Shown here piece by piece: positions 5,058 through 53,544 of a stretch of 64,000 bases of DNA (positions are counted from its first letter, which is position 1; every line of letters begins with the position of its first letter). Below the pieces are notes generated by a model. It saw only the letters and a list, made by a program, of their open reading frames with translations. It did no database searches and had not been told where the DNA came from. The position numbers and the translations under genes were made by a program. Origin of the DNA: an uncultured Candidatus Saccharibacteria bacterium (GTDB lineage: Bacteria; Patescibacteriota; Minisyncoccia; Phycocordibacterales; UBA9973); contig CAZKJE010000002.1 in the NCBI GenBank assembly GCA_964553015.1, positions 14,175 through 78,174 on the forward strand, written 5' to 3'.

Positions 5058-5248
5058 AAGCCTGTGTCAGCTTACAAGAACAAACCACTATATTTTAGAT
5101 TTTTCCTGCCTGCATGCCAAAGATTTGCAAACTTTCTCTTATCTTTTCTTTTGAAAACTTCATAATATATGGGATATTCCTGTGAACCAATGTAAAATAA
5201 ATTTTTAAAATTCAACGTACATAGTATAACAGAAAGGATAAAATTAGT

Positions 5249-18957: not shown

Positions 18958-19707
18958 ATGCGGCGCAACATAATCGGTTGTCTCGTTGTTCTCTTGGTCT
19001 TGGCGTTCTCTGTTAACGCACAAGACTCTGAACTCTTAACGCTTGACCGTCGTCCAGACATTTTCTCAACGAAGATGGCGGTCCAACAGGGGGTGGGCGG
19101 AGTTTTCAACTCCGTTCAAATTCCGACTAGACGTCGCGGAGCACGTCGCCCTGTGCCAACTCCCACTTATATGACGCTCGAAATGGGAATCGGAGTAGTG
19201 GGGCCTGACGAGTTCGGGAAGTACAAGGTTCCTTTCTCCATTTGGTTTCCCGTTCCGGAGGGAACCACGTTCACAGGTTACTCTGTGGATGTGAATGGGA
19301 ACAGGAGTTACCTTGGGCACAACACGGTGACCAGCGAAACTGCGAACCTCGGTTGGGCGGGTAATCTCTGGGGTCCATATACGGGAGGTGCTCTCCTGCC
19401 AGAGAGCATCGTAGGGTTCGAGGTTGAGTTTACTGGTAACTTCCAGACCTACGGTATGCATACTCCGGCACCAGGGGCTACCAGACCTCCAGTGATAGTG
19501 GACGTGTACCCCAATGGGTTGCTCTTCCTCAAGGAGACGTTCGCAGTTCCACCGGTTATCTCTCTCAACGGAAGAGGCCATCCGATTCTGAACGGATGGG
19601 TGACTCCGATGGAGGGATATACGGGACCGGACGTTGTCGTAATTAGGTGCACAGGCTTTCCTCGTTCGGAGTGTCTGACCCAGGTCGTCGACATTCCGAC
19701 CTCATAA
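18958..19707 (+). CDS. secreted hypothetical protein with foreign (GC-rich) codon usage
   Basis: Start refined to the ATG after SD AGGAGGG. Signal peptide MRRNIIGCLVVLLVLAFSVNA. About 55% GC with G/C-ending codons (aag, gag, ttc, aac, tac), unlike neighbouring genes. Confidence 0.7.
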   Translation: MRRNIIGCLVVLLVLAFSVNAQDSELLTLDRRPDIFSTKMAVQQGVGGVFNSVQIPTRRRGARRPVPTPTYMTLEMGIGVVGPDEFGKYKVPFSIWFPVPEGTTFTGYSVDVNGNRSYLGHNTVTSETANLGWAGNLWGPYTGGALLPESIVGFEVEFTGNFQTYGMHTPAPGATRPPVIVDVYPNGLLFLKETFAVPPVISLNGRGHPILNGWVTPMEGYTGPDVVVIRCTGFPRSECLTQVVDIPTS

Positions 19708-19759: not shown

Positions 19760-19797
19760 GCCCCGGTTCCGCAAGGAATCCGGGGCATAACTTTTTA
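19760..19797 (+). terminator. intrinsic terminator
   Basis: GCCCCGGTTCC-GCAA-GGAATCCGGGGC hairpin followed by a T-rich tract. Confidence 0.6.
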
Positions 19798-19865
19798 TAC
19801 CAAAGTCTGAGTTATCCACATGCTTTCTTGATATTTTGTTTACTTTTTAAAGTATAATTGAGTAT

Positions 19866-22676
19866 ATGAACAAACTAAAATATTTTTTATTTGGCGCATT
19901 TTTTCTTTTAGCATTCGCTTTTTTATTTACTAATGTTAATCAAGTTTCCGCAGCTGGAAATTGTACGACAGATACTTGGAATCCTCCTAGTCTGGTTCCT
20001 TGGAAGACTACAGCCTCTACTCAAACATTTGACTTGACCCATACTTATAAGGATGGGTTTTTGCCTGGAGCCCCTTCTACAACTGAAACAGATTCTTGTA
20101 CAACAACAGCAAATCACGGCGCTACTTGCCAAGCGGGAGGTGTAACTGAATCATTACAAGGTCCACAGGATCCAGAATTTGGATATCCATGTAATCCAAG
20201 TGGATTAATAAACGTAACCAGTCCCATAAATAGAATAGATACACTTCTGCCAGTTTGCGGTACATGGAGTGGTTCGGGGCCGACATATACTCTCTCGGGT
20301 TCAACTGACCCGGCTGCAAGCGGGGGTAGTGGACAAAGTGGGATAAATGTTTCTGGTGGTTCTTGTACCGCTTCATCGGGGAGTTCTTGTACAGTAACTA
20401 TTTCAGATGTTGCGGGAAATCTAAAATCTTGTACCAGCCCGGTTTATGGTAATTATACAGTAGCCGCAGTTGCAAATAGTGGTGGCAGTGTTTCTCCAAT
20501 TTCTCAACCAAATGTAGCTTATGATTCTACGACAAATTTTACCGTTACCCCAAGTAATGGCTTTACTCATGCTGTTGGATCTCCAGGCTTTGGTCCTTCA
20601 GGGTGTGCTGATAATACAGGGACTTTTACTACTGGTACTAACTATCTTACTGGTAAGATTAAAAACAACTGCAACTACACTTTTAGTTTTACTCTTAGCG
20701 TTCCCGCTACTCCCACTGGTCTAACTGCCACACCTAGTTCTTGCGGAACAGGGAGAATAGATGTTTCGTGGAATGCATCCAGCGGCGCTACCAGCTACAC
20801 GCTTAAGGATGGAGCTGTTACTATTTATACCGGAGCTGCAACTTCTTTTGCTCACACTGGTCTAGTAGCGGGCTCGAGTCATAGTTACACCGTGAGTGCT
20901 ACAAATAGCGGCGGCACTTCTGCATACTCAAGCGCTGTTTCAGCGAGTGCGCCGATAGCGTGTGCTGCAGTTGTCAACGGCTCCTGTTCAGTAACCCACT
21001 ACGGTTGTACTGCAGGAACAAGCGCCAACAATGTAGACGGCGCTACTTCTTGGACTTGGGTTTGCAATGGTTCAAATGGCGGAACCAACGCATCCTGTTC
21101 TGAAGCGAAACCTTTACCCGATCTCACTGCTTCCTCTCCCACGCCAACGACAGCCACCACCGGCGTAGCGCAGACGTTCTCTTCAACTATCTCCAACATC
21201 GGCACCGCTTCAACTGGAGCTTCTTTCTCCAACTTCTTCCAGGTAGCCACAGCTGCCGGAGGAGGGGGAACTGTTACGGATCTTGCCTCTACTACAATGA
21301 CAACTCTGGCTGCCGGAGCCACTGGCACCAGCACCAAGGCCTACACCTTCCCATCTGCCGGCACATACTCTGTCCGAGCTTGCGCGGACAAGACTAACGC
21401 CGCTTCTACTGGAGTAATTACGGAATCAAATGAGGGTAACAATTGCAGTTCGTGGACAAATGTTTCAGTCACCAGCACCCCTGTCATGTCCGGCACCCTG
21501 ACTCCAAATCCTACTTCTTGTGTTATAGCTTCTGGTGCTTCAAGTTGTTCTGTCACTCTTAATTGGAGCATAGCAAATCCTGAAGGAATACCGACCGCTA
21601 TCACAGCCACAGGAATGACTAATGTGAATGTCACAAACACTCTGGCAACACCCCAATCCGGGAATCAATCTTTAACTGTTCCGTACAGTTCTAGAATATT
21701 TTATCTTTACAATAATGGAGTTCAGCTTGCTACCAGCAGTGCTACTGCCAGTTGTACAGGGGGGACTGCATGGAATGGAAGTATCTGCGCTCCCGCTATG
21801 TCCGGCACACTTACGTCTTCAGCTCCATCTTGCGTAATTGCTTCCGGAGCAAGCACTTGCATTGTAAATCTCACTTGGACTACGACAAATCCCGAAGCAA
21901 CTTCTGCGGTCACTTCTTCTTATCCTGCTCCTAACACTACTGTTTTCACTGGATTAAACGGCGGTCCTTCATCGGTTACCATTCCGTACAGTTCCAGAAC
22001 TTTCTATCTTTACAATAATGCAAAATCACTCGTGCCGACTTCTCCTAGCGGAGCCGGTATCGTCGTGACTGCAAGCTGTACAGGAGGAACAGCTTGGAAT
22101 GGAACAGTTTGCGCAAACGTTCCTCCCACGGTTAACGCCGGTCCCGATAAGGCCATAACTCTTCCTACTAGTTCTTCCGCTCCTACCGGCGCCTATGCTA
22201 CCGATGTCTCGCCTGGCACAATAAGCAGCAGATTGTGGACGAAAACTTCTGGCCCGAGTGCTACCATTACCAATGGGACGACGCTTACTCCTACGTTTTC
22301 TAATATGACAGCCGCCGGCACATACGTCTTCCGTCTCACTGCTACCGACAATCAGGGGGCTACAGGATTTGACGAAATGCAGGTTGTGGTTTCAGCTTCC
22401 GGCGGTGGAGAAGAATGCACTAATGGAGCAACGAATTATCCCGAGTGTACTATCGATGGCGGAGGATGCCTCAACGGCGCAACCAATCCGCCTCTTTGCA
22501 CCATCGGGGCAGGCACTAATGGCAACTGCGCAATCACGCCTAACACCTGTTCTTCTGGAACACCGACCGTTGGCGCATGGAATGCCTCTAACCATGTCTG
22601 GACTTGTACTGGAACGAACGGAGTGCCTGTATCATGTTCAGCCCCGAAGAGACAGCCGGACTTTATAGAAAATTAA
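19866..22676 (+). CDS. large Thr/Ser/Gly/Cys-rich cell-surface protein with an Fn3-like domain and tandem repeat modules (putative adhesin)
   Basis: 936 aa. N-terminal signal/anchor. Fn3-like segment (GLTATPSSCGTGRIDVSWNASSGATSYTL ... YTVSATNSGG). Two tandem repeats of about 105 aa. Repeated Cys modules (C..GC..G...W.W.C.G.NG...SCS). TATAAT lies 7 nt upstream of the ATG. Confidence 0.8.
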   Translation: MNKLKYFLFGAFFLLAFAFLFTNVNQVSAAGNCTTDTWNPPSLVPWKTTASTQTFDLTHTYKDGFLPGAPSTTETDSCTTTANHGATCQAGGVTESLQGPQDPEFGYPCNPSGLINVTSPINRIDTLLPVCGTWSGSGPTYTLSGSTDPAASGGSGQSGINVSGGSCTASSGSSCTVTISDVAGNLKSCTSPVYGNYTVAAVANSGGSVSPISQPNVAYDSTTNFTVTPSNGFTHAVGSPGFGPSGCADNTGTFTTGTNYLTGKIKNNCNYTFSFTLSVPATPTGLTATPSSCGTGRIDVSWNASSGATSYTLKDGAVTIYTGAATSFAHTGLVAGSSHSYTVSATNSGGTSAYSSAVSASAPIACAAVVNGSCSVTHYGCTAGTSANNVDGATSWTWVCNGSNGGTNASCSEAKPLPDLTASSPTPTTATTGVAQTFSSTISNIGTASTGASFSNFFQVATAAGGGGTVTDLASTTMTTLAAGATGTSTKAYTFPSAGTYSVRACADKTNAASTGVITESNEGNNCSSWTNVSVTSTPVMSGTLTPNPTSCVIASGASSCSVTLNWSIANPEGIPTAITATGMTNVNVTNTLATPQSGNQSLTVPYSSRIFYLYNNGVQLATSSATASCTGGTAWNGSICAPAMSGTLTSSAPSCVIASGASTCIVNLTWTTTNPEATSAVTSSYPAPNTTVFTGLNGGPSSVTIPYSSRTFYLYNNAKSLVPTSPSGAGIVVTASCTGGTAWNGTVCANVPPTVNAGPDKAITLPTSSSAPTGAYATDVSPGTISSRLWTKTSGPSATITNGTTLTPTFSNMTAAGTYVFRLTATDNQGATGFDEMQVVVSASGGGEECTNGATNYPECTIDGGGCLNGATNPPLCTIGAGTNGNCAITPNTCSSGTPTVGAWNASNHVWTCTGTNGVPVSCSAPKRQPDFIEN
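21478..22113 (+). repeat. two tandem coding repeats of about 318 bp inside the surface-protein gene
   Basis: Repeat 1 is PVMSGTLTPNPTSCVIASGASSCSVTLNW...CTGGTAWNGSICAPA. Repeat 2 is MSGTLTSSAPSCVIASGASTCIVNLTW...CTGGTAWNGTVCAN. Roughly 60% identity. Confidence 0.6.
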
Positions 22677-22747
22677 AAAATAAAATTATTCAGCAAAAAA
22701 ATCCCCCAGATAAACATTTGCGGGATTTTTTTGTTATAATAGAGAAG

Positions 22748-24511
22748 ATGCAGATCAATGAAGACAAGATAAAAAAATTTATTTTAGATTCAGGCCTCGT
22801 TTCTAAAACGGATCTCGAAGATGCTATGGAAAAAGCCGCGGAGAAAAATCAAAAGATCTCCGATTTTTTACTTTCCGAGGGAAAAATATCTGAAACGGAT
22901 ATGAGGCGGATGCAGGCTTTTGCCTTAGGCATTCCTTTTATAAGCTTAGCTGGAGAAAAAATAGAATTTTCCGTCTTGTCCCTCATTCCGGAGCCGATCG
23001 CCCGAAATTACAATATAGTTGCCTATAAAAAAAATGACGATAAATTGGAAGTCGCCATGCTGGACGCAGATGACCTGCCGGTAATTGATTTCATCAAGAA
23101 ACGCTCTGGGTTGAAAATATTGCCTCGGCTTACCGACGATGCTTCTATAAAGTCTGTACTGGTGCAATACAGGCAGAGTTTAAAGGCCGAATTTCAGAAT
23201 ATAATTCAAAAAGAAGCAAATGCACTTGCCAAAGCAGGGGGTGAAAAGACAGGAGATAAGGGAGCAGAAAAAACTGAAAGCGAACTCAAGAAAATGGCCG
23301 AAGATTTGCCGGTGGTCAAAATCGTCGACTCACTTATTTTTCATGCTATTCTCCAAAGTGCTTCAGATATTCACATAGAGCCGGGAGAAAAAGAACTGAC
23401 AGTGCGCTACAGGATAGACGGCATATTGCATGATGCCATGGTTCTGGACAAGACCGCCGGCGCCGGCATAACCGCCCGCATAAAAGTATTATCCAATTTA
23501 AAACTGGACGAAAAACGCTTGCCCCAAGACGGCAGATTTAAAATAGAGCAGAACGGAGAAAAAATTTCTTTCCGCGTTTCCACTCTGCCGACTTTTTACG
23601 GAGAAAAAACTGTTATCAGAATCCTCAAGGAAAACGCGCACGGCTTTTCTTTGGAGACGCTCGGCTTTCACGGGGAAGGACTGGAGCGGATCCACGCTTC
23701 GCTCAAACAAAAAACCGGAATGGTGCTCGCGACGGGACCGACGGGTTCAGGAAAGACGACGACGCTCTACACCATGCTCGATATTTTAAATAGGCCCGAA
23801 GTAAATATTTCTACGGTTGAAGATCCGATAGAGTATCAGATGCCGAGGGTGAATCAAACTCAAGTCAAACCCGAAATCGGGCTAACTTTTGCAAACGGCC
23901 TGCGCTCACTTTTGCGTCAGGATCCGGATATCGTGATGGTTGGGGAGATTCGCGATGGCGAAACGGCCGGCCTCGCCATCAACGCGTCTTTAACCGGACA
24001 CCTTGTACTCTCTACCATCCATACCAATTCCGCCGCCGGCGCGATACCTCGGCTCATAGACATGGGAGCTGAGCCGTTCCTCATAACCGCCACCGTCAAA
24101 ACTATCATCGCGCAGAGATTGGTGCGCAAGCTTACCCCGAATAAAGAAAAATATTTTTTGTCTCCGGCTGAGTTGAAAAATCTCGGAAACGTTGTTGACT
24201 TGGATCGCCTGCTTGGATTTCTAAAAGCTGAAAAAATAGTGGGCGCGAGCGATACTTGGGCGAAAATTCCTTTTTACAAGCCGGTAGCTTCAAGTGAATT
24301 TGAAGATGGATATTCCAGCCGAATAGGCATGCATGAGGTTCTAAAGGTTACGCCTACTATCAAGGAAATGATCATAAAAGGAAGCTCACAGGATGAAATG
24401 GAAGCGCAGGCAAAGAAAGAGGGAATGATGACCATGATAGAAGACGGAGTTTATCAGGCGGTCTTGGGAGTGACGACGCTTGAAGAAGTGTTCAGAGTAG
24501 TTTCAGAATAG
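22748..24511 (+). CDS. pilB: type IV pilus assembly ATPase PilB (GspE family)
   Basis: Start refined to MQINEDK, which gives an N-terminal GSPII domain. Walker A GPTGSGKTT. Asp and His boxes present. Confidence 0.9.
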   Translation: MQINEDKIKKFILDSGLVSKTDLEDAMEKAAEKNQKISDFLLSEGKISETDMRRMQAFALGIPFISLAGEKIEFSVLSLIPEPIARNYNIVAYKKNDDKLEVAMLDADDLPVIDFIKKRSGLKILPRLTDDASIKSVLVQYRQSLKAEFQNIIQKEANALAKAGGEKTGDKGAEKTESELKKMAEDLPVVKIVDSLIFHAILQSASDIHIEPGEKELTVRYRIDGILHDAMVLDKTAGAGITARIKVLSNLKLDEKRLPQDGRFKIEQNGEKISFRVSTLPTFYGEKTVIRILKENAHGFSLETLGFHGEGLERIHASLKQKTGMVLATGPTGSGKTTTLYTMLDILNRPEVNISTVEDPIEYQMPRVNQTQVKPEIGLTFANGLRSLLRQDPDIVMVGEIRDGETAGLAINASLTGHLVLSTIHTNSAAGAIPRLIDMGAEPFLITATVKTIIAQRLVRKLTPNKEKYFLSPAELKNLGNVVDLDRLLGFLKAEKIVGASDTWAKIPFYKPVASSEFEDGYSSRIGMHEVLKVTPTIKEMIIKGSSQDEMEAQAKKEGMMTMIEDGVYQAVLGVTTLEEVFRVVSE

Positions 24512-24533
24512 TTCTCACGAGCACCATAAATAA

Positions 24534-25751
24534 ATGTTATTTTCATACAGCGCAAAATCAAAAACGGGAGAAATCATGGAAGGAATTTTGGAGTTCCCGG
24601 ATCGTTTTTTGGCAGCGCGCGATTTGCGGTCTCGGGGCTACACGCCTATTTCTATTTCCGAAAAGGGCAAAAGTATTGCTGACAAACTTGGTTCCATGAA
24701 AGGCATGTTCTCAAAAGTAAGCGTAGGAGAGCAGATTATTTTTACAAAAAATTTAAGCGGTATGATAAAGGCGGGACTTTCGCTGTCGCGAGCGCTCTCG
24801 GTTTTACAAAAACAAACAAAGAACCCAAAACTTATTGATATTCTGACTTCGGTCTCAAGCGATATAAATTCCGGCGGAAACTTTTCCGCGGCGCTTGCAA
24901 ATTTTCCAGATGTATTTTCCAAACTTTTTACTTCCATGGTCCGTGCAGGAGAAGAGTCCGGAAATCTATCTGGCGCGCTTTCTGATATAGGAGTAAATCT
25001 GGAAAAAGCTTATTCGCTGACTAAAAAAGTTCGTGGAGCGCTCATATATCCAGGGGTAATAATGTCGGCCATGATAGTCATAGGCGTGCTCATGTTTGCT
25101 TTCGTGGTGCCGACCTTGGCGGGAACCTTTAGAGAGCTCGGGGTTACATTGCCGACTTCAACTCGTATTCTTGTATTCATCGGCAACTTTTTCTCAAACC
25201 ACCTCCTGCTAACTTTTTTGATACTAGTTTTGGCTTTCTCTGCCTTGTTTTTCTTTTTTCGCGCAAAGTTTATGGCAAAGTATATAGACTTCGTTATTTT
25301 AAAAATACCCGTTATAGGTGTTTTAGCAAAAGAAATAAATACGGCTCGTACCGCTCGCACTATCGCCTCTCTTTTGTCTTCTGGGGTTTCTATCGTTCGA
25401 GCGGTCGAGATAACGGAAGATGTCGTCCAGAATGTTTTTTATAAAAGAATTTTAAACGAAGCAAGAATTGCTATTGAAAAAGGCGCTCCTTTTTCCGCTG
25501 TATTTGAAGCGAACGAAAAGCTTTATCCGGTAATGATGGCGGAAATGGTAGCCGTCGGCGAGGAGACGGGAAAGCTATCGGACATGCTTCACGAAATCGC
25601 TCTTTTCTATGAAGAAGAAATAGAAAATAAGACAAAAAATCTTTCTACTATCATCGAGCCGGTACTGATGATCCTGATTGGCACAGCAGTGGGCTTCTTT
25701 GCTATTTCTATGATCTCTCCGCTTTATTCAATTTTGGGCAGCATAAATTAA
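24534..25751 (+). CDS. pilC: type IV pilus inner-membrane platform protein PilC (GspF family)
   Basis: Two GspF repeats. 405 aa. Confidence 0.9.
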   Translation: MLFSYSAKSKTGEIMEGILEFPDRFLAARDLRSRGYTPISISEKGKSIADKLGSMKGMFSKVSVGEQIIFTKNLSGMIKAGLSLSRALSVLQKQTKNPKLIDILTSVSSDINSGGNFSAALANFPDVFSKLFTSMVRAGEESGNLSGALSDIGVNLEKAYSLTKKVRGALIYPGVIMSAMIVIGVLMFAFVVPTLAGTFRELGVTLPTSTRILVFIGNFFSNHLLLTFLILVLAFSALFFFFRAKFMAKYIDFVILKIPVIGVLAKEINTARTARTIASLLSSGVSIVRAVEITEDVVQNVFYKRILNEARIAIEKGAPFSAVFEANEKLYPVMMAEMVAVGEETGKLSDMLHEIALFYEEEIENKTKNLSTIIEPVLMILIGTAVGFFAISMISPLYSILGSIN

Positions 25752-26219
25752 ATGAAAAATTTTTACAAAAAAGGAATAAGCGCTATTGAGATATTTGTGG
25801 TAGTGGCCATAGTAGCTCTTCTCGCTACTGTCGTTATTCCTCAGTTTTCTAAAATTCGCGAAAGACAGGTTTTAAAAAGCGCTGTCAGTGACATTTTATC
25901 CAGTATAAATAAAGCACAGATAAAAACTCTGGCCTCGGTCGACTCGTCTTCTTATGGCGTGCATTTTGAATCAGGTAAAGTTATAATTTTTAAAGGGATA
26001 GTTTTTTCTTCCAGCGACTTAAATAATGAAAATGTAGATCTGACCTCGCCGGCAAATATTTCTAATGTAACTTTGGCAGGAGTAAGCGCAAGTTCAGGGG
26101 AAATTTATTTCAATCGACTGTCCGGTGTTCCCAATAAATCCGGTACGGTGACGGTATCAACGACAAATTTTGTAAAAACCATTACTATTTCCGCCATAGG
26201 CCAGGCAAGCGCGAACTAA
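25752..26219 (+). CDS. type IV pilin-like protein (pseudopilin 1)
   Basis: Prepilin leader MKNFYKKG followed by ISAIEIFVVVAIVALLA, with Glu at +5 and a hydrophobic helix. Confidence 0.7.
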   Translation: MKNFYKKGISAIEIFVVVAIVALLATVVIPQFSKIRERQVLKSAVSDILSSINKAQIKTLASVDSSSYGVHFESGKVIIFKGIVFSSSDLNNENVDLTSPANISNVTLAGVSASSGEIYFNRLSGVPNKSGTVTVSTTNFVKTITISAIGQASAN

Positions 26220-26220
26220 A

Positions 26221-26640
26221 ATGAGAATAAATTTTAAAAATAAAGGCTTTATGATGGTGGAAGTATTGGTAGCAGTCTCAATTATTACTGCTGCTATATT
26301 GGCTACGATGGCCGTCGCCCAAAAGTCTGTGTATGTTTCCCGTCAAGCTCTGCATACTACACAGGCGGCATTTTTATTGGAAGAAGGGGCGGAAAATGCA
26401 CGAATCGCGCGAGACAATGCATGGAGCAATGTCGCTTCTTTGAACACCTCGGAACAAATAGGGATTTTTACCAGAACAGTTGCTGCTTCCGGTGTGAACC
26501 GAGACAATACCACTTCAGATATTAGTGCCGCTGGCACGGATGATCCGGATACAAAATTGATCACCGTTACCGTATATTGGCCGGAAGGAGGAAACGTAAT
26601 AACCAAGACTTTACAATTTTATATTATGAATATTTTTTAG
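26221..26640 (+). CDS. type IV pilin-like protein (pseudopilin 2)
   Basis: Leader MRINFKNKG followed by FMMVEVLVAVSII, with Glu at +5. Confidence 0.7.
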   Translation: MRINFKNKGFMMVEVLVAVSIITAAILATMAVAQKSVYVSRQALHTTQAAFLLEEGAENARIARDNAWSNVASLNTSEQIGIFTRTVAASGVNRDNTTSDISAAGTDDPDTKLITVTVYWPEGGNVITKTLQFYIMNIF

Positions 26641-26648
26641 TTGTTACA

Positions 26649-27152
26649 ATGCTTACAATTTATAAAAATAAGAATAAAAACGGTTATGCGCTTCTCGAGC
26701 TTTTGTTTTACATAGCTTTTTTCTCACTGCTTTCGATTATAGTTATAAACGCCATGATAACCATGGCGCAATCTTTCAAAGAAACAGAAATCCAAACAGA
26801 ACTTTTGCGAAGCGGATCAATAATGGAAAGGATCTCGCGAGAAGTAAGAGGAGCGATTAACATAAGCTCAATAACTACGACTGACCTCAAATTAAATACA
26901 ACAGACAGTGCCGGAACAGCAAAAACCGTAGAATTTTTAATGTCCGGTTCAAATCTGCAGCTTTTAGAGAATGAAATCCTTACCGGAAATTTAAATAGTG
27001 CGAATATAATCATTTCTGGCCTTACTTTTACGCAAATAACCACCACAGAAGGAGTCGGAGTTAAAATTGTTTTAACTGTGCAGTCTCCAAGCGATAAATA
27101 TAGCAGAACAGTGGATTTTTACGACACTGTCATTTTACGAGGAAATTATTAA
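26649..27152 (+). CDS. type IV pilin-like protein (pseudopilin 3)
   Basis: Start refined to MLTIYKNKNKNG followed by YALLELLFYIAFF, with Glu at +5. The longer upstream ORF extension would give an implausible 36-aa leader. Confidence 0.65.
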   Translation: MLTIYKNKNKNGYALLELLFYIAFFSLLSIIVINAMITMAQSFKETEIQTELLRSGSIMERISREVRGAINISSITTTDLKLNTTDSAGTAKTVEFLMSGSNLQLLENEILTGNLNSANIIISGLTFTQITTTEGVGVKIVLTVQSPSDKYSRTVDFYDTVILRGNY

Positions 27153-27158
27153 TCAAAC

Positions 27159-28439
27159 ATGAAAAAAGATTTCAAAAAAATTAATAATCAGTCCCTGCCT
27201 GCCGGCCGGCAGGGCGGAGCAGCGATGCTGATAGCCGTAGTTTTTTTTCTGTTTATTTCTTTAGCAATAATTTCCGGCCTCGTGTCGCCGTCTGTGCGCG
27301 AATTCAAAAATGCCAATGATGCGGTCAGATCGAGACAAAGTTTATTTTTGTCCGAATCGGGAACAGAGGACGCCTATTTTAGATTGAAAAATGCAAAAAC
27401 TATAAGCTCTCCGGTGGTGCTGGTTTTAAACGGTAATACTGCGACAACCACTATCACAGATTCCGGATATAACGAAAAAACTGTAACGGCGCTTGGAGAT
27501 GTTTCAGCGCGGCAGAGAAAAAGTGAAATTGTTCTGACCACGGGCGACGGGGTTTCTTTCAGCTATGGTATCCAGTCAGGGGTCGGCGGATTTGTTATAG
27601 GTAACGCTGTCGTGAATGGTAATGTATATTCAAACGGAAATATCACAGGGGCTAATGGCGCTACTATTACCGGTTCGGCTTTTGCCGCCGGAGCGACGGG
27701 GGTTATTGATAATATAGATGTGGGACAGGGAGGCATAGGGGACATAAAAGCGCATACTGTGAATGATTCTACTGCTGCCGGCAATTTATATTGCCAAGTT
27801 GGCTCGAACAATAATAAATCCTGCAATACATCTCAGGCTGATCCGGAAATAGCGCCGATGCCAATCACGGAAGAGATGATTAATAAATGGAAAGCAGATG
27901 CAGAACTTGGCGGAATTTTTACTGGAAACATGATTATATCCGAGCAGACGAGCCTAGGGCCGAAAAAAATTACAGGCAATTTGTCTATTGAGGCTGATGT
28001 AGTTATTACGGGTACTGTTTATGTAACAGGGAATATTACGACTAATAACGGCGCAGAGGTTTCTTTGAGCAGTTCTTATGGGGCTCTCGGCGGAATTATT
28101 GTTGCTGACGGAAGAGTAACTCTTTCCAATAACGTTAAATTTTTTGGATCTGGCACTGCAGGCACATACATATTATTAGTCACTACAAGCGCGTGCCCGA
28201 CGGACTGTTCAGGCTTGAATGCTCTGGAAATTTTAAACAACGTAGGCGCAATACTGGTGAATGCTCAAAATGGCACGGTGCACCTCAACAATAATGTTAC
28301 CCTGAACGAAGTTGTGGGAAATACAATTATTGTAGACAATAGCGCGGTGATAAATTATCTTTCGGGGCTTGCTAACCAAAATTTTTCTTCCGGACCTTCG
28401 GGAGGATGGAACATTGATAGCTGGAAGGAGGTGGAATAA
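27159..28439 (+). CDS. PilX-N-like pilus-associated protein with a Gly/Asn-rich beta-helix-like repeat region
   Basis: N-terminus RQGGAAMLIAVVFFLFISLAIISGL resembles the PilX N-terminal domain. Repetitive GNxxVNGNVYSNGNITGANGATITG tracts. Contains the perfect 16-bp palindrome CCTGCCGGCCGGCAGG in-frame. Confidence 0.5.
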   Translation: MKKDFKKINNQSLPAGRQGGAAMLIAVVFFLFISLAIISGLVSPSVREFKNANDAVRSRQSLFLSESGTEDAYFRLKNAKTISSPVVLVLNGNTATTTITDSGYNEKTVTALGDVSARQRKSEIVLTTGDGVSFSYGIQSGVGGFVIGNAVVNGNVYSNGNITGANGATITGSAFAAGATGVIDNIDVGQGGIGDIKAHTVNDSTAAGNLYCQVGSNNNKSCNTSQADPEIAPMPITEEMINKWKADAELGGIFTGNMIISEQTSLGPKKITGNLSIEADVVITGTVYVTGNITTNNGAEVSLSSSYGALGGIIVADGRVTLSNNVKFFGSGTAGTYILLVTTSACPTDCSGLNALEILNNVGAILVNAQNGTVHLNNNVTLNEVVGNTIIVDNSAVINYLSGLANQNFSSGPSGGWNIDSWKEVE

Positions 28440-30350: not shown

Positions 30351-30693
30351 TCTTCTGTGCGTTTCCTGCTAAATCTTTTTCGTCGCCGACGGTTTCCGGC
30401 CAGACCCAGATATGCGCATGATGTATTTCTTCGCCGTATACTTGCGAGCGGACTATGTCCGCATTAAAAGCTTTCTTTTGCGCGAGCGCAATTTTTCTGG
30501 CAACTTCGAAATATTCTCCTATGTTTGGCACTTCCCATACCCAGCGGAAATGTTTCTTTGGAATGATCTGCACGTGCCCCGGAGCTATAGGCCGTATATC
30601 TAGAAAGGCTAAAAAATTGCTGTCTTCATATATCTTTGTAGCAGGTATCTCACCTTTTACAATTTTGCAGAAAATACAATTTTGTTCATTCAT
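30334..30693 (-). CDS. HIT-family (histidine triad) nucleotide hydrolase
   Basis: HIT motif HHAHIWV. 119 aa. Confidence 0.8.
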   Translation of the reverse strand: MNEQNCIFCKIVKGEIPATKIYEDSNFLAFLDIRPIAPGHVQIIPKKHFRWVWEVPNIGEYFEVARKIALAQKKAFNADIVRSQVYGEEIHHAHIWVWPETVGDEKDLAGNAQKIIEAL

Positions 30694-30729
30694 AAGAATA
30701 TTATATCAAATTATGCTAGAATTTCACCT

Positions 30730-32388
30730 ATGCATCAGTATGGCGAGCTGCTAAGGAGTCTTTTAGAGAAAAGGGGAATTTCTGATCTGGAAAAAGCGGA
30801 TATTTTCCTGAACCCCAGCTATGAACGCGATTTGCATGACCCTTTTTTAATGCGCGACATGGAGCGTGCCTGTGTTCGACTGCTTGAAGCCATTGAAAAA
30901 AAAGAGAAAATAGTGATATATGCAGACTACGACTGCGATGGCATACCGGGGGCTGTAATATTAAACGACCTGTTTAAATTACTGAATTATAAAAACTATG
31001 AAGTATATATACCACAGAGAAATTCTGAAGGCTATGGACTAAACATCGAAGCCATAGATAAGTTTAGAGATTCTGGCATCAAACTTATAATAACTATAGA
31101 CTTGGGGATCACGGCAGTAGAAGAAGTTGCTAAAGCAAAAACTTACGGCATTGATACGATAATAACCGATCACCATATTCCTCATGCGGTTCTGCCGGAG
31201 GCGTTTGCAATTCTAAATCCAAAAGTAGATGATTATCCGGAAAAAATGCTCTGTGGGGCGGGGGTAGCTTTTAAGTTTGCGCAGGGAATGATAAAGATGG
31301 CAAATGGTGATTTTGCCTTTAAAATAAAGCCCGGCGCCGAAAAATGGATGCTAGATATGGCAGGGCTCGCCACTCTTTCCGATATGGTGCCGTTAACGGG
31401 GGAGAACAGAGCTATTGCATATTTCGGAATGAAAGTTATGAAAAAATCTCCGCGCCCGGGTCTGCAAAAACTGCTTGCAAAAATGAATATTGATCAGCGA
31501 TATTTGTCTGAAGACGATATCGGTTTTATGGTTACCCCGAGATTAAACGCGGCCTCGCGCATGGATGATCCGATGCGGGCGTACGAACTTCTTTCCACTG
31601 ATGATGAGGTAGAAGCCGGAAGACTTGCTAGCCATCTGTCAAAAATAAACGACGACAGAAAAAGTTTGGTAAAAGGAATCATGCGGGAAGTTAATAAACA
31701 CTTTGAGGAGAGAAAGGAGACGGATGTGATAGTGATCGGGAATCCGGGGTGGCGCGTGGGCATACTCGGGCTTGTGGCCGGTAAAATATGCGACGAATAC
31801 GAAAAACCGGTTTTCGTGTGGGGGAAAGATGAAAATGACTGCATAAAAGGCTCCTGCCGAAGCGATGGATCGGTATCTGTGGTGGAGCTTATGACCGAAG
31901 CCAAAGATTCGTTCGTAGATTTTGGAGGACACGAGCTTGCCGGAGGATTTACAGTACGGAATGAAAAGATCCATTTTCTGGAAGAAGCATTGTCTGTATC
32001 TTTTCAAAAAGTAAAAAGGGCAGTAGCGGAAAATAAAGCTCTGCATGATGTTAAAACGGAATTAGGCGCGGTCAATATAAAAAACTGGAGAGATATAGAA
32101 AAAATGTCGCCCTTCGGACTCGCTAATCATAAGCCGGTTTTTCTATTTGAGAAAGCAAAAATTGAAAAAATAAAAAAATTCGGCAAAAATGGTTCCGGTG
32201 AGCATTTGGAAATAGTTTTTTCAGACGAAAGCAGCAAAAAAGCCACAGCCGTTTCTTTCTTTTCTGGGATTGATTCATTTGGCAAGCTATTGGAGGAAGC
32301 AAAAAATGTAAATGTTCTGGCGACTTTTGATCTGTCTAGGTTTAGAGGCAGAGAGGAGCTTCGTTTGAGAATTGTTGATATAATATAG
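30730..32388 (+). CDS. recJ: single-stranded-DNA-specific exonuclease RecJ
   Basis: DHH motifs (DYDCDGI, ITDHH) and DHHA1 domain. Start refined to MHQYGELL. Confidence 0.8.
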   Translation: MHQYGELLRSLLEKRGISDLEKADIFLNPSYERDLHDPFLMRDMERACVRLLEAIEKKEKIVIYADYDCDGIPGAVILNDLFKLLNYKNYEVYIPQRNSEGYGLNIEAIDKFRDSGIKLIITIDLGITAVEEVAKAKTYGIDTIITDHHIPHAVLPEAFAILNPKVDDYPEKMLCGAGVAFKFAQGMIKMANGDFAFKIKPGAEKWMLDMAGLATLSDMVPLTGENRAIAYFGMKVMKKSPRPGLQKLLAKMNIDQRYLSEDDIGFMVTPRLNAASRMDDPMRAYELLSTDDEVEAGRLASHLSKINDDRKSLVKGIMREVNKHFEERKETDVIVIGNPGWRVGILGLVAGKICDEYEKPVFVWGKDENDCIKGSCRSDGSVSVVELMTEAKDSFVDFGGHELAGGFTVRNEKIHFLEEALSVSFQKVKRAVAENKALHDVKTELGAVNIKNWRDIEKMSPFGLANHKPVFLFEKAKIEKIKKFGKNGSGEHLEIVFSDESSKKATAVSFFSGIDSFGKLLEEAKNVNVLATFDLSRFRGREELRLRIVDII

Positions 32389-32390
32389 AA

Positions 32391-32882
32391 GTGACAGAGA
32401 AAACTATTAAAATTTATACTGACGGTTCAGCCAGAGGAAATCCGGGAAAAGCAGGCTGGGGAGCTGTTTTTCTTTTAGGCGATAAAGTTTTTGAAATGGG
32501 CGGGCGGTCCGATCACGCGACAAATAATCAGATGGAGCTCACTGCGCCAATAGAAGCGCTTAAATATTTAAAAAAATCCCCTAGGCAAGGTCTAGGGGAA
32601 AAAATTACACAGGGGAGTTCTGTGCAAATCGTGTCTGACTCAAAGTATGTTATTTTAGGTATTACCGAGTGGATCTTAAACTGGCAGAAAAATAATTGGC
32701 GAAATGCCGCAAAAAAGCCTGTTATGAATCGAGAACTTTGGGAAGAGCTGTACAAGCTTACGGAAGAATTAAAAACAACATGGGAATATGTAAAAGGCCA
32801 CAACGGCGACAAATATAATGACCGAGCAGATGAAATAGCGACAAGCTTTGCAGACAATGAGCCAGTGGAGTTGAAAAAATAA
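32391..32882 (+). CDS. rnhA: ribonuclease HI
   Basis: YTDGS...GWG and NQMEL motifs plus a C-terminal D. GTG start. Confidence 0.8.
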   Translation: MTEKTIKIYTDGSARGNPGKAGWGAVFLLGDKVFEMGGRSDHATNNQMELTAPIEALKYLKKSPRQGLGEKITQGSSVQIVSDSKYVILGITEWILNWQKNNWRNAAKKPVMNRELWEELYKLTEELKTTWEYVKGHNGDKYNDRADEIATSFADNEPVELKK

Positions 32883-32890
32883 ATATTTCA

Positions 32891-34456
32891 ATGCAAGATA
32901 AAATTTTTCATACGGTTTGTTTTGGATTTTTATTCGGAGTGCTGTTGCGCTCCTTCTTTTTTATAAGTATATATTTTTCGCTATTAGCCGGAATTATAAC
33001 GCTCGCTTTAATTTTATTTTTTACTCTTATATCCTTCGGCCATAGCCCTACCCTCGGGCGTAGTCCTACGGGCGAGCCGGGTGAGGCAAAAAGCAAATGG
33101 GGAGTTCTGATATCTGTTTTTATTTTTGCCTTTAGTTTTGGAGTTTTTAGATTTGGTCTTGCAGATGTGCCAAATCCTGTCGCCTTTGAATCTCAAGTAG
33201 GCGAAAAAATAACTCTCTCTGGGGAAATTGTAGATGAGTCCAGTATTAGAGAAAATAATCAGCAATTGATTATCGAAACAGAAAAAGAAGCGAGTATAGA
33301 TAGTAAGACAGGAATTTTATTATCAGTAAGTTTGAGTGAGAGTTATAAATACGGTGATAAGATAAATTTTACAGGAACTCTGAAAAAACCGGAAAATTTT
33401 ATCACGGATACCGGCAAAGAGTTTGATTATATAAATTATCTGCGCAAGGACGGCATTTTATACGTCATGAGTTATCCCAAAGTTGAAATTATTTCGCGCG
33501 GCAATGGTAATTTAATAAAAAAATATTTATTTCTCATAAAAGAAAAATTTCTAAATAAAGTGAATTTAGTTATAGCAAGTCCGGAAAATTTATTAATGGG
33601 TGGATTGATCTTGGGGGAGAAATCATCTTTTAGCAAAGATCTCCGGCAGGATTTCGTAGACACCGGCACGATACACATCGTCGCTCTGTCTGGCTACAAT
33701 ATCACCATAGTCGCTGAATGGTTTATGAAACTTTTCGCTCAACTGCCATACCTGTCTAAAAATTTTGGCATAGGCATGGGTGTTTTTGCTATTATATTAT
33801 TTATTTTGATGACGGGCGGAAGTTCGACGGCAGTCCGCGCCGGCATTATGGCAACTCTCGCTCTCGTGGCTAGGGCGACGGGAAGAAATTATGATGTGGC
33901 GCGGGCATTAATTCTTGCCGGAGTCGGCATGATACTTATTAATCCATTTATTTTAGCCTTTGATGTTTCTTTCGAACTTTCTTTTATCGCAACCGTTGCC
34001 GTGATATTCCTAGCGCCAAGAATAGAAAAATATTTTCTATGGGTCACCGAAAGTTTTGGCCTGCGGGACATAGTGTCTGTAACTTGTGCTGCATACATTT
34101 TTGTCTTCCCTTTTATTCTATACAAAATGGGCAATTTATCTCTCGTAGCTCTGCCGGCAAACATTTTAATACTTCCCTTTATTCCGTTTACTATGATGCT
34201 TGGATTTCTGACTGGTATCGCCGGTCTTGTTTTGCCGATATTGTCCCTGCCCATTGGCTATATATCTTATCTTTTTTTACATTATGAGCTATGGGTTATT
34301 AAATTTTTTGCAAATTTGCCGTTTGCGTCATTTTCTTTTCCGAATTTCCCGCTTTTCCTCACTTTGCTAATTTATGCCTATTTTGTCTACTATCTTTTCG
34401 GCAGAAATATAAAAGATTTTTTTAATATGGATAAAGACGAAATAGAAATATTGTAA
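32891..34456 (+). CDS. comEC: ComEC/Rec2 competence channel protein (DUF4131 plus competence domain)
   Basis: Polytopic membrane protein with a competence domain (HIVALSGYNITIV). Encoded separately from the MBL domain. Confidence 0.75.
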   Translation: MQDKIFHTVCFGFLFGVLLRSFFFISIYFSLLAGIITLALILFFTLISFGHSPTLGRSPTGEPGEAKSKWGVLISVFIFAFSFGVFRFGLADVPNPVAFESQVGEKITLSGEIVDESSIRENNQQLIIETEKEASIDSKTGILLSVSLSESYKYGDKINFTGTLKKPENFITDTGKEFDYINYLRKDGILYVMSYPKVEIISRGNGNLIKKYLFLIKEKFLNKVNLVIASPENLLMGGLILGEKSSFSKDLRQDFVDTGTIHIVALSGYNITIVAEWFMKLFAQLPYLSKNFGIGMGVFAIILFILMTGGSSTAVRAGIMATLALVARATGRNYDVARALILAGVGMILINPFILAFDVSFELSFIATVAVIFLAPRIEKYFLWVTESFGLRDIVSVTCAAYIFVFPFILYKMGNLSLVALPANILILPFIPFTMMLGFLTGIAGLVLPILSLPIGYISYLFLHYELWVIKFFANLPFASFSFPNFPLFLTLLIYAYFVYYLFGRNIKDFFNMDKDEIEIL

Positions 34457-34457
34457 T

Positions 34458-53486: not shown

Positions 53487-53544
53487 TAATTATCCCCCTT
53501 TTGTCTGGCTATTGTTTTCAATCCTGTTATTATTAAGGATAGTT

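What the first reader, a model, noticed from the sequence alone, without database searches (positions are those of the whole stretch)
19866..22676. 936-aa Thr/Cys-rich modular surface protein encoded immediately upstream of the type IV pilus operon
Signal/anchor N-terminus, an Fn3-like domain, two tandem repeats of about 105 aa and a repeated Cys module (C-x4-C-x2-G...W.W.C.G.NG...SCS) that brackets the variable region. There are also short NGATNxPxCTI repeats near the C-terminus. It is co-oriented with pilB-pilC-pseudopilins, consistent with an adhesin or pilus-associated attachment factor, possibly host-contact machinery. The repeat architecture predicts length variation.
Basis: partly seen in the sequence, partly recalled or inferred. 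Interest (0 to 1): 0.5.

Follow-up and report, generated by a model that had tools for sequence, protein, structure and literature searches.

The report
Modular surface protein beside pilus genes
A secreted, beads-on-a-string surface protein of an ultrasmall Patescibacteria bacterium sits in a fast-changing slot just before the type IV pilus genes, and it ends in a short conserved tail that may attach it to the pilus or the cell surface, which gives a testable lead on how such cells hold on to partners.

Summary
It has a cleavable Sec signal peptide. The rest is about eight Ig-like beta-sandwich modules (three N-terminal ones, Fn3-like, CARDB, two ~105-aa repeats, PKD), two 4-Cys modules and two NGATN mini-repeats. 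There is no membrane anchor, LPXTG, lipobox or pilin signal.

It is not in the pilus operon. A strong terminator hairpin and an extended -10 promoter separate it from pilB, and this arrangement is conserved in relatives.

New here: the protein ends in a tail (PKRQPDFIEN; family consensus KKKPxFIE[ND], general form P-x-[FY]-x-E-x-COOH).
- In 80 species-level pilB loci, all 33 tail-bearing ORFs lie upstream of pilB and co-oriented, against 0 of 625 other ORFs.
- An unbiased DNA search for the tail gave 11 of 11 readable hits with pilB 23-103 nt downstream.
- The domains before the tail are shuffled freely (312-2909 aa), and the tail codons vary synonymously.
- The last, GspK/PilX-like pilus protein ends in a similar aromatic-x-Glu motif.
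- Three relatives with the tail lie away from pilB.

Best reading: an exchangeable adhesin cassette, with the tail as a docking or retention signal. Docking itself is untested. Slippage-driven length variation is not supported.

The parts
19828..19858 (+). Candidate own promoter: TTGATA (19828-19833), 19-nt spacer, TATAAT (19853-19858). The -10 box ends 7 nt before the ATG, which suggests a leaderless or near-leaderless mRNA.
   Evidence: Read from the sequence. Not reported by the scan because the spacer exceeds 18 nt. An upstream hairpin (gccccgg...ccggggc, 19760-19786) ends the preceding gene.
19866..22676 (+). Whole gene: 936-aa secreted modular surface protein.
   Evidence: An identical protein is in public collections (P0001; locus L001).
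19866..19952 (+). Sec signal peptide (residues 1-29, predicted cleavage VSA|AG).
   Evidence: Maximum 13-residue hydropathy 2.63 at residue 8. No lipobox (AGN|C has Asn at -1) and no G-x4-E pilin motif.
19953..20705 (+). N-terminal 'head' (residues 30-280): three small Cys-containing Ig-like beta-sandwich modules. The last one resembles an InlB B-repeat (Flg_new_2-like).
20709..20951 (+). Fn3-like domain (residues 282-362).
   Evidence: Pfam fn3 E=0.034, below the cut-off. Beta-sandwich in the model. Shared with 56 homologues.
20961..21110 (+). 4-Cys module, copy A (residues 366-415; NG-C-x6-C-x2-G...W-x-W-x-C-x-G-x-N-G-G...C-S-E-x-K).
   Evidence: No Pfam or NCBIfam model matches. Modelled with low confidence.
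21114..21461 (+). CARDB domain (residues 417-532).
   Evidence: Pfam PF07705, E=3.5e-10, 40.4 bits against a cut-off of 22.7. pLDDT about 95.
21477..22115 (+). Two tandem ~105-aa Ig-like repeats: R1 (538-642) and R2 (643-750). Each has two Cys pairs and an RxFYLYNN motif.
   Evidence: z=30.6. pLDDT about 85-95. 1-4 copies in 50 homologues. DNA copies are diverged.
22116..22400 (+). PKD domain, K319L-like (residues 751-845).
   Evidence: Pfam PF22352, E=4.9e-16. PDB sequence hits to KIAA0319L PKD domains, E=7e-9.
22407..22517 (+). Two NGATNxPxCTI mini-repeats (residues 848-884).
   Evidence: z=9.9. The same motif is seen near the C-termini of homologues.
22506..22652 (+). 4-Cys module, copy B (residues 881-929).
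   Evidence: 18 homologues end with this module plus the tail.
22644..22673 (+). Conserved C-terminal tail PKRQPDFIEN-COOH (family consensus KKKPxFIE[ND]; general form P-x-[FY]-x-E-x-COOH).
22692..22735 (+). Intrinsic-terminator hairpin (A-tract/stem/U-tract) ending the gene's transcript.
   Evidence: MFE -21.1 kcal/mol, z=-5.8, 0 of 200 shuffles fold as well. The same CAAAAAATCCCC...GGGGATTTTTTG element follows the tail gene in most related loci.
22711..22740 (+). pilB promoter: TAAACA, 18-nt spacer, TG-n-TATAAT (extended -10). The -10 box ends 7 nt before the pilB ATG at 22748.
   Evidence: Best promoter match in the region, 10 of 12 with TG. Conserved in relatives.
22748..28439 (+). Type IV pilus gene set:
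- pilB 22748-24511
- pilC 24534-25751
- GspG/H-like pilin 25752-26219
- PilV/GspI-like pilin 26221-26640
- GspJ/ComGF-like pilin 26649-27152
- GspK/PilX-like 426-aa protein 27159-28439, ending ...SWKEVE-COOH

Best explanation
Shown:
- The gene encodes a Sec-exported, signal-peptide-cleaved, disulfide-rich string of Ig-like modules. Nothing in it resembles an enzyme and it has no known anchor.
- It belongs to a Paceibacterota/Nomurabacteria-type Patescibacteria genome.
- It occupies a slot between nusA and pilB that holds 0-3 genes in different species. In this slot the domain content is reshuffled between even close species, while two things are kept: the N-terminal signal peptide and a C-terminal tail of about 10 residues (KKKPxFIE[ND]; more broadly P-x-[FY]-x-E-x-COOH).
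- It is transcribed on its own. A terminator and then a promoter precede pilB.

Inferred mechanism:
- The protein is an exchangeable adhesin cassette. The N-terminal Ig-like head and the CARDB, PKD and repeat modules form a long stalk that binds a partner surface.
- The free C-terminal tail is a short linear docking signal. It holds the otherwise unanchored protein on the cell, most likely on the minor-pilin tip complex of the adjacent type IV pilus. The large GspK/PilX-like subunit of that pilus ends in a similar aromatic-x-Glu-x(1-2)-COOH motif.
- Pilus extension and retraction would then present and pull on the adhesin.
- Rapid domain shuffling in the slot would change binding specificity without touching the docking interface.
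For: - Export and architecture.
- Conserved position, from homologue look-ups: P0007, P0021, P0026, P0027, P0044, P0010 and P0088 all lie 0-1 genes upstream of pilB, co-oriented.
- Conserved position, from 80 pilB loci: all 33 tail-bearing ORFs of at least 200 aa are upstream and co-oriented (33 of 179), against 0 of 625 elsewhere within +-10 kb (Fisher p=2.5e-23).
- How often the slot is filled: 22-25 of 33 loci with PilB 72-86% identical carry a tail ORF.
- Unbiased search from the tail: the DNA pattern for KKKPIFIE[ND]-stop hit 14 metagenome stretches, and all 11 readable ones have pilB starting 23-103 nt downstream.
- The tail is independent of the preceding domain and of protein length (312-2909 aa).
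- Tail codons vary synonymously (TTC/TTT 6:6, all four CCN, GAA/GAG 8:4), so selection acts on the peptide.
- The pilus operon's last protein ends [ST]-W-x-E-x-x in 43 of 46 family members, and so does the divergent family in the same operon position. Among unrelated families only trigger factor matches this loose pattern.
- Fast turnover: the closest species (PilB 86% identical) has a 1193-aa protein that shares only the head (55% identity) and one repeat type.
- Precedents: terminal linear motifs dock secreted proteins to tip minor pilins (TcpF-TcpB, PMC9565799; CofJ-CofB, PMC6048534). Pilus-associated CagH, CagI and CagL share a C-terminal hexapeptide that they need for function and localisation (PMC3164655).
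Against: - There is no direct evidence of binding. The tail is modelled with low confidence.
- The gene is insulated from pilB by a strong terminator, so co-expression is not implied.
- Three homologues with the ...Y-x-E-F tail variant (P0103, P0020, P0059) lie far from pilB, in arrays with small membrane-anchored proteins. The tail could therefore be a general surface-retention signal.
- One locus (L002) keeps the tail protein but has no pilus genes between it and tpiA.
- 8 of 33 close loci and most of the more distant ones lack a tail gene near pilB.
- All pilB-linked cases share wider synteny (tig, H+-PPase, nusA | slot | pilB...tpiA, pgk), so part of the positional signal is inheritance within one clade.
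- The similarity to the K-like protein's C-terminus rests on only two residues.
Confidence: 0.5

Rival explanations
1. The tail is a general, pilus-independent cell-surface retention or sorting signal of Paceibacterota secreted proteins. It would be recognised by a wall, S-layer or membrane-anchored receptor, such as the small N-terminally anchored 150-185-aa proteins often encoded beside tail proteins. The gene then sits next to pilB only by inherited gene order. The protein is still an adhesin or surface-coat component.
For: - At least 59 of 120 domain-level homologues end in the tail or a close variant.
- Three of them (P0103, P0020, P0059) lie in non-pilus loci, in arrays of tail proteins interleaved with small TM-anchored proteins.
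- The same small-protein family flanks tail proteins in L026, L029, L057, L063, L065, L071 and L077. A 176-aa gene precedes P0088 in L106, but its family was not checked.
- L002 keeps the tail protein without pilus genes.
- A strong terminator insulates the gene from pilB.
Against: - Within +-10 kb of pilB the tail is found only upstream and co-oriented (33 against 0 of 625).
- All 11 readable hits from the tail-first search abut pilB.
- No homologue of the small TM protein is present in this 64-kb window.
- A bona fide pilus-operon protein carries a similar C-terminal motif.
Confidence: 0.3
2. The protein has no functional link to the pilus and no special tail function. It is a freely released or loosely wall-associated extracellular protein (for example substrate-binding, coat or decoy) in a recombination-prone variable region. 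The conserved 3' end merely reflects its closeness to conserved flanking DNA.
For: - Wider synteny is conserved around the slot.
- Some species have no gene in the slot, with nusA directly next to pilB, as in L018, L024, L025, L058 and L059.
- The terminator and promoter element directly after the stop codon is conserved.
Against: - The tail is conserved at the amino-acid level with free synonymous variation and different stop codons.
- It persists across PilB divergence down to about 65%, and in loci far from pilB.
- It is kept while everything upstream of it is replaced.
- This pattern indicates purifying selection on the peptide, not hitch-hiking of DNA.
Confidence: 0.12
3. The protein is itself a pilus subunit: a modular pilin or a PilY1-type tip adhesin assembled into the fibre.
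For: It is adjacent to and co-oriented with pilB, pilC and the minor pilins. Modular pilins that carry adhesin domains exist in Streptococcus sanguinis (PMC8179133).
Against: - It has a Sec-type signal peptide with a VSA|AG site and no G|xxxxE class III signal.
- There is no pilin or PilY1 hit in Pfam or NCBIfam.
- It lies outside the operon, behind a terminator.
- The operon already holds four pilin-like proteins in the H-I-J-K order.
Confidence: 0.03

Closest known systems
Large beta-rich repeat 'adhesin-like' proteins of Parcubacteria/OD1 and Ig-like/PKD signal-peptide proteins of Paceibacteria (Nelson & Stegen 2015, PMC4508563; Kuroda et al. 2024, PMC10936435)
   Same: Same phylum-level group and the same kind of protein: exported, all-beta, Ig-like/PKD/CARDB modules, proposed to mediate attachment to hosts.
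   Different: Those reports do not describe the conserved C-terminal tail, the fixed slot 5' of pilB, or the domain shuffling at that slot. None of the four literature searches found these features.
TcpF (Vibrio cholerae) and CofJ (ETEC): secreted proteins of type IVb pili (PMC9565799, PMC6048534, PMC10120004)
   Same: Sec-exported, non-pilin proteins encoded with the pilus genes. A short flexible terminal peptide is the recognition signal for the tip minor pilin.
   Different: - Their signal is N-terminal; here the conserved peptide is the extreme C-terminus.
- They are small single-function proteins inside the operon; this is a 936-aa modular stalk in its own transcription unit.
- The organism is a monoderm Patescibacterium.
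- Binding is not shown here.
CagH/CagI/CagL of the Helicobacter pylori cag T4SS (PMC3164655)
   Same: Several pilus-associated proteins share a conserved C-terminal hexapeptide encoded by divergent DNA. The motif is required for localisation and function.
   Different: Different secretion system (type IV secretion, not type IV pilus), a different motif and no sequence relationship.
PilY1/PilC tip adhesins with the FimU-PilVWX (GspH-I-J-K-like) minor pilins
   Same: A large non-pilin adhesin proposed to ride on the minor-pilin tip complex. The operon here has four pilin-like genes in the same order.
   Different: No PilY1 beta-propeller or vWA domain, and the gene is not inside the minor-pilin operon.
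Sortase-anchored Gram-positive adhesins (MSCRAMM-like) and Aureispira GhpA 'grappling hook' (top Foldseek hit 9flw_A)
   Same: Long strings of Ig-like domains projecting a binding head from the cell surface.
   Different: There is no LPXTG, TM or basic-tail sorting signal and no T9SS C-terminal domain. The structural resemblance is generic Ig-like stacking (TM-scores 0.1-0.2).

Membership tests
CARDB domain proteins (Pfam PF07705) | Match to the CARDB profile above the gathering score | tested here: met
   40.4 bits against a cut-off of 22.7, E=3.5e-10, residues 418-528. pLDDT about 95.
PKD domain proteins (K319L-like, PF22352) | Match to the profile above the gathering score | tested here: met
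   59 bits against a cut-off of 27, E=4.9e-16, residues 758-842. PDB KIAA0319L PKD domains at E=7e-9.
Fibronectin type III (PF00041) | Match above the gathering score | tested here: inconclusive
   14.8 bits against a cut-off of 25. The model gives a beta-sandwich with block pLDDT 75-87 at 282-362.
Type IV pilins / modular pilins | Class III signal peptide: short basic leader, Gly at -1, hydrophobic helix with Glu at +5 | tested here: not met
   The N-terminus is a Sec signal with a VSA|AG site. No pilin model hit. The three downstream ORFs do show KKG|ISAIE, NKG|FMMVE and KNG|YALLE.
PilY1/PilC tip adhesins | C-terminal PilY1 beta-propeller domain; gene embedded in the minor-pilin operon | tested here: not met
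   No such Pfam or NCBIfam hit. The gene is separated from the operon by a terminator.
Sortase substrates (LPXTG proteins) | C-terminal LPXTG-like motif, then a hydrophobic segment, then a basic tail | tested here: not met
   The protein ends ...SCSAPKRQPDFIEN. The maximum 19-residue hydropathy after residue 40 is 1.40.
Known C-terminal sorting tags (PEP-CTERM, GlyGly-CTERM, MYXO-CTERM, PGF-CTERM, T9SS CTD) | Signature motif followed by a TM helix and a basic cluster, or a folded ~80-aa CTD; NCBIfam models exist | tested here: not met
   No NCBIfam hit at E<=1 except a 9-bit chance match. No TM segment. The tail is the very end of the protein.
Bacterial lipoproteins | Lipobox [LVI][ASTVI][GAS]-C at the end of the signal peptide | tested here: not met
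   The sequence is ...VSAAGN-C33, with Asn at -1. Cys33 lies at the start of the first modelled strand of the head domain.
T4P-dependent secreted/tip-docked proteins (TcpF/CofJ type) | Sec-exported non-pilin encoded with the pilus genes | tested here: met
   Signal peptide. Directly 5' of pilB in this and related genomes, though as a separate transcription unit.
T4P-dependent secreted/tip-docked proteins (TcpF/CofJ type) | Short conserved terminal peptide that binds the tip minor pilin | not testable with these tools
   A conserved terminal peptide exists, but at the C-terminus rather than the N-terminus. Binding needs complex prediction or experiments.

The most novel reading that the evidence does not exclude
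P-x-[FY]-x-E-x-COOH is a previously undescribed C-terminal docking signal. It would load interchangeable, Sec-exported adhesin cassettes onto the GspK/PilX-like tip complex of the Paceibacterota type IV pilus. It would be a C-terminal counterpart of the type IVb pilus secretion signal, letting these host-dependent ultrasmall bacteria swap host-binding specificity by domain shuffling in one genomic slot.
Probability: 0.3. Interest if true: 0.8.

Novelty: new variant of a known kind. Interest (0 to 1): 0.58.

Why it matters
Patescibacteria make up a large share of bacterial diversity, and the cultivated ones live attached to other cells. Outside Saccharibacteria, the molecules that make contact are largely unknown.

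This locus offers a concrete, testable handle:
- a conserved 6-10-residue tail that marks a whole class of exported surface proteins;
- a fixed genomic slot next to the pilus motor genes;
- a hypervariable ectodomain.

If the tail docks adhesins to the pilus or to the cell surface, three things follow. It gives a simple sequence rule for finding host-contact proteins in thousands of uncultured genomes. It identifies a peptide to use as bait for the receptor. It explains how binding specificity can evolve quickly while the machinery stays constant.

If the tail turns out to be a general retention signal instead, it is still an undescribed sorting motif for a major bacterial lineage.

Tried and rejected
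- Slippage or recombination between the two 105-aa repeats as a source of length variation. Rejected: DNA identity is at most 82% over 50 nt, and Tandem Repeats Finder reports nothing.
- Paralogues in the window. None: tblastn finds only the gene itself, and it is the only real gene in 64 kb that ends in the tail. The one other regex match is an 85-aa minus-strand ORF inside another gene.
- Tail conserved because of overlapping DNA signals. Rejected on synonymous variation.
- Homology search with the head alone. Only one hit, so nothing could be learned about its distribution.
- Whole-model Foldseek. Only generic Ig-string matches with TM-scores 0.1-0.2.
- The Cys modules, PKD and C-terminus are poorly modelled in the full-length job because the mosaic alignment is poor there. 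Their fold stays unknown.
- A partner small TM protein in the window. Only a spurious TM-segment match. Pfam finds no family for these small proteins, for the upstream 303-aa ORF, or for the 426-aa K-like protein.
- Two tail-pattern hits (L092, L095). These are 23-aa ORFs in apparently non-coding DNA and were set aside as chance AT-rich matches.
- A fused-chain docking model was not attempted.
Full report
**1. What is at the coordinates**

An ATG-initiated ORF runs from 19866 to 22676 on the + strand and encodes 936 aa. Its composition is extreme: T 16.8%, S 13.2%, G 11.1%, A 10.8%, with 34 Cys and only 6.2% charged residues.

The N-terminus, MNKLKYFLFGAFFLLAFAFLFTNVNQVSA|AG, is a classical Sec signal peptide with an AxA-type cleavage site. 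It is not a lipobox, because Asn precedes Cys33, and it is not a prepilin signal. No other hydrophobic segment exists.

- the two ~105-aa repeats, z=30.6;
- the two 4-Cys modules, z=8.4;
- the two NGATNxPxCTI mini-repeats, z=9.9.

Pfam adds a CARDB domain (418-528, E=3.5e-10) and a K319L-like PKD domain (758-842, E=4.9e-16). The Fn3 call is only weak by sequence (E=0.034).

**2. Structure**

- A full-length AlphaFold2 model has mean pLDDT 69.5. Outside the signal peptide it is essentially all-beta.
- Confident beta-sandwiches cover about 120-360 (head plus Fn3-like), 417-535 (CARDB, pLDDT about 95) and both repeats (about 85-95).
- The Cys modules, the PKD domain and the C-terminus are poorly modelled because the mosaic alignment is poor there.
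- Foldseek returns only strings of Ig-like domains: the Aureispira grappling-hook protein GhpA, mastigonemes, alpha-2-macroglobulins and receptor ectodomains.
- Nothing resembles an enzyme. The protein is a secreted, disulfide-rich stalk of about eight Ig-like modules.

**3. Neighbourhood**

Downstream lie:
- PilB (true start 22748; T2SSE, E=4.8e-122) and PilC (T2SSF, E=4.1e-58);
- three small proteins with visible prepilin motifs (KKG|ISAIE, NKG|FMMVE, KNG|YALLE) and weak GspG/H, PilV/GspI and GspJ/ComGF profile hits;
- a 426-aa protein with a pseudopilin-like N-terminus that lacks Glu+5, that is, in the GspK/PilX position.

After these come tpiA, pgk, recJ and comEC. Upstream, on the opposite strand, are a GNAT acetyltransferase, nusA and an H+-pyrophosphatase.

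The gene is not in the pilus operon.
- The 71-nt spacer holds a hairpin of -21.1 kcal/mol (z=-5.8) flanked by A- and U-tracts.
- The hairpin is overlapped by TAAACA-18-TGTTATAAT, whose -10 box ends 7 nt before the pilB ATG.
- The same terminator-plus-extended-10 arrangement follows the equivalent gene in most related loci.
- The gene's own TATAAT also ends 7 nt before its ATG.

**4. Relatives**

The identical protein is already in public data, unnamed. Significant homologues are almost all from Paceibacterota (Nomurabacteria, Zambryskibacteria, Kaiserbacteria and others). They are mosaics of the same module set: CARDB, Cys module, R repeat, Fn3, PKD and the head, in different numbers and orders.

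Repeat copy number does vary between proteins: R 1-4, Cys module 1-7, CARDB 1-6. This is domain shuffling between species. Within this gene the repeats are diverged at the DNA level, so slippage-type length variation is not expected.

**5. The conserved tail**

- Eighteen homologues end, like this protein, with a Cys module followed by ...KKKPxFIE[ND]-COOH.
- Relaxing the pattern shows that at least 59 of 120 homologues end in [PAG]-x-[FYIV]-x-[ED]-x, or in the variant ...Y-x-E-F, whatever domain precedes.
- Of the 58 tail-bearing homologues that start with Met, 49 have signal-peptide-like N-termini. The other 9 look like truncated gene calls. Only one has any additional TM-like segment.
- No Pfam or NCBIfam model covers the tail, and four literature searches found no description of it.

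**6. Link to the pilus locus**

*a. From homologues.* Eight tail proteins, counting the window's own, lie 0-1 genes upstream of pilB and co-oriented with it: P0001, P0007, P0021, P0026, P0027, P0044, P0010 and P0088. One (P0004) sits in the same slot, but the pilus genes are missing. Three with the Y-x-E-F variant (P0103, P0020, P0059) lie elsewhere.

*b. From PilB.* Eighty species-representative loci were examined (PilB 65-86% identical).
- All 33 ORFs of at least 200 aa that end in the strict tail pattern lie upstream of pilB on the same strand (33 of 179).
- None of 625 other ORFs within +-10 kb has it (Fisher p=2.5e-23).
- 22-25 of 33 loci with PilB 72-86% identical have such a gene within 4 kb upstream.
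- 7-11 of 35 more distant loci have one.

*c. From the tail.* A degenerate DNA pattern for KKKPIFIE[ND]-stop hit 14 metagenome stretches. In all 11 that could be read, pilB starts 23-103 nt downstream. One hit lies at a contig end, and two are 23-aa ORFs in apparently non-coding DNA.

Three further points:
- The tail codons vary synonymously (TTC/TTT 6:6, all four CCN, GAA/GAG 8:4, TAA/TAG), so the peptide itself is under selection.
- Proteins in the slot range from 312 to 2909 aa.
- The closest species (PilB 86% identical) has a 1193-aa protein that shares only the head (55% identity) and one repeat type.

**7. A second carrier of a similar motif**

- The GspK/PilX-like last protein of the operon ends ...GPSGGWxIxSWKE[VI][EKQ]. 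43 of 46 family members match aromatic-x-E-x(1-2)-COOH.
- The divergent family that takes the same operon position in other lineages ends ...ISW[QED]E[VI][KE].
- Among unrelated families in these loci, only trigger factor matches this loose pattern.
- The resemblance rests on two residues and may be coincidence. It is nevertheless what a shared recognition site would look like.

**8. Interpretation**

Shown:
- an exported, unanchored, Ig-like modular protein;
- its own transcription unit;
- a hypervariable slot with a conserved position;
- a C-terminal peptide under selection.

Inferred:
- The protein is an exchangeable adhesin cassette.
- The tail is a docking or retention signal. My preferred receptor is the minor-pilin tip complex of the adjacent pilus.
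- This is by analogy with TcpF-TcpB and CofJ-CofB, where a terminal peptide hooks a secreted protein to the tip pilin (PMC9565799, PMC6048534), and with the shared C-terminal hexapeptide of pilus-associated CagH, CagI and CagL (PMC3164655).

The main rival is a pilus-independent surface-retention signal. It is supported by the three non-pilus loci, by the small TM-anchored proteins that often flank tail proteins, and by the locus that lacks pilus genes. A pilin or PilY1 identity is excluded by the N-terminus and the domain content.

Because comEC and recJ lie close by, the pilus may primarily serve DNA uptake. That would weaken a host-attachment reading but not the docking idea.

**9. Novelty and score**

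Large beta-rich 'adhesin-like' proteins and Ig/PKD signal-peptide proteins are already noted in Parcubacteria/Paceibacteria (PMC4508563, PMC10936435). As such, the gene is a new member of a known kind.

The tail, its near-exclusive placement before pilB in this clade, the cassette-like turnover and the similar motif on the K-like pilin appear undescribed. They make a specific mechanism testable. I therefore rate the finding as a new variant of a known kind, with interest 0.58.

Noticed in passing
window 27159-28439 (+); homologues in L003-L088: The 426-aa last protein of the pilus operon has a pseudopilin-like N-terminus without Glu+5 and a Gly/Asn-rich repetitive middle region. It ends in a strongly conserved ...GPSGGWxIxSWKE[VI][EKQ]-COOH. 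43 of 46 family members match aromatic-x-E-x(1-2)-COOH, and a divergent family in the same operon position ends ...ISW[QED]E[VI][KE].
   Followed up: partly
L026:7569-8036, L029:7316-7774, L057:4509-5021 and 5054-5560, L063:4698-5210, L065:4816-5313, L071:5643-6194, L077:5358-5882: A family of small (150-185 aa) proteins with one N-terminal TM helix and an alpha/beta C-domain is encoded directly beside tail-bearing large proteins in pilB loci. It has no Pfam family and no homologue in this window. Similar-looking small genes sit beside tail proteins in non-pilB loci (L090:5233-5700) and before P0088 (L106:8459-8989), but their family membership was not tested. It is a candidate receptor or chaperone for the tail.
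   Followed up: partly
L089, L090, L091 (Zambryskibacteria-type loci): Arrays of two or three consecutive large secreted proteins each end in ...[FL]-x-Y-[IQ]-E-F-COOH (for example RAFNYIEF, RQFQYIEF, TKFNYQEF). They lie away from pilB, between small TM proteins.
   Followed up: partly
window 19853-19868 and 22732-22750; many loci: Both the surface-protein gene and pilB have their -10 box (TATAAT; TGTTATAAT) ending about 7 nt before the ATG, with no Shine-Dalgarno sequence. This suggests leaderless mRNAs. The pilB arrangement, with the terminator U-tract running into the extended -10, recurs across related species.
   Followed up: partly
window 18796-19707 (+): An upstream ORF (probably starting at the internal Met near 18958, with signal peptide MRRNIIGCLVVLLVLAFSVNA) encodes a secreted protein with no Pfam or NCBIfam family. 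Proteins with similar C-terminal ends (...C-x-T-Q-V-V-D-I-P...) occupy the same slot in L017, L006 and L008. In L031, L039 and L040, slot proteins of similar size (317-359 aa) carry a tail (...PTYIEH, ...PHYQEN, ...PHYIER). Only L017 was confirmed as a homologue by phmmer.
   Followed up: partly
L002 (contig_91641 of ERZ25039515): A tail-bearing 1106-aa homologue (P0004) is followed directly by tpiA and pgk. The whole pilB-to-K-like gene set is absent from the locus, and the nusA call there looks fused to ABC-transporter sequence. This could be a deletion, a rearrangement or an assembly artefact.
   Followed up: no
window 30682-35327 (+): recJ, then comEC (DUF4131 plus Competence domains, 32891-34456), then a separate metallo-beta-lactamase ORF (34458-35327), lie 2-7 kb downstream of the pilus genes. 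The MBL ORF may be a split-off ComEC C-terminal domain. The pilus may therefore be a DNA-uptake pilus.
   Followed up: no
window 56948-60448 (+): A 1166-aa class I aminoacyl-tRNA synthetase (probably IleRS) carries a histidine-phosphatase (His_Phos_1) domain inserted at residues about 524-611, inside the catalytic domain.
   Followed up: no
homologues P0004, P0007, P0035, P0042, P0055, P0062; e.g. ...DGGWSGWS... in P0062 and P0007: Several Patescibacteria homologues carry thrombospondin type-1 repeat hits (PF00090, PF19028; WSxWS motif) next to the Cys modules. This domain is mostly known from eukaryotes. The window protein lacks it.
   Followed up: no
window 20961-21110 and 22506-22652; up to 7 copies in homologues (P0072, P0076, P0020): The ~48-aa 4-Cys module (NG-x-C-x3-H-Y-x-C-x2-G-T-S...W-T-W-x-C-x-G-x-N-G-G-T-N-A-S-C-S-E-x-K) is widespread in Paceibacterota surface proteins. 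It has no Pfam or NCBIfam model and was not confidently folded, so it may be an undescribed small disulfide domain.
   Followed up: partly
L006:16030-19362: In one relative, a 1110-aa protein with NosD/beta-helix and LCAT-like lipase hits follows pilC where the usual small pilins would be. The window also encodes an 817-aa LCAT-like protein elsewhere (53512-55965).
   Followed up: no
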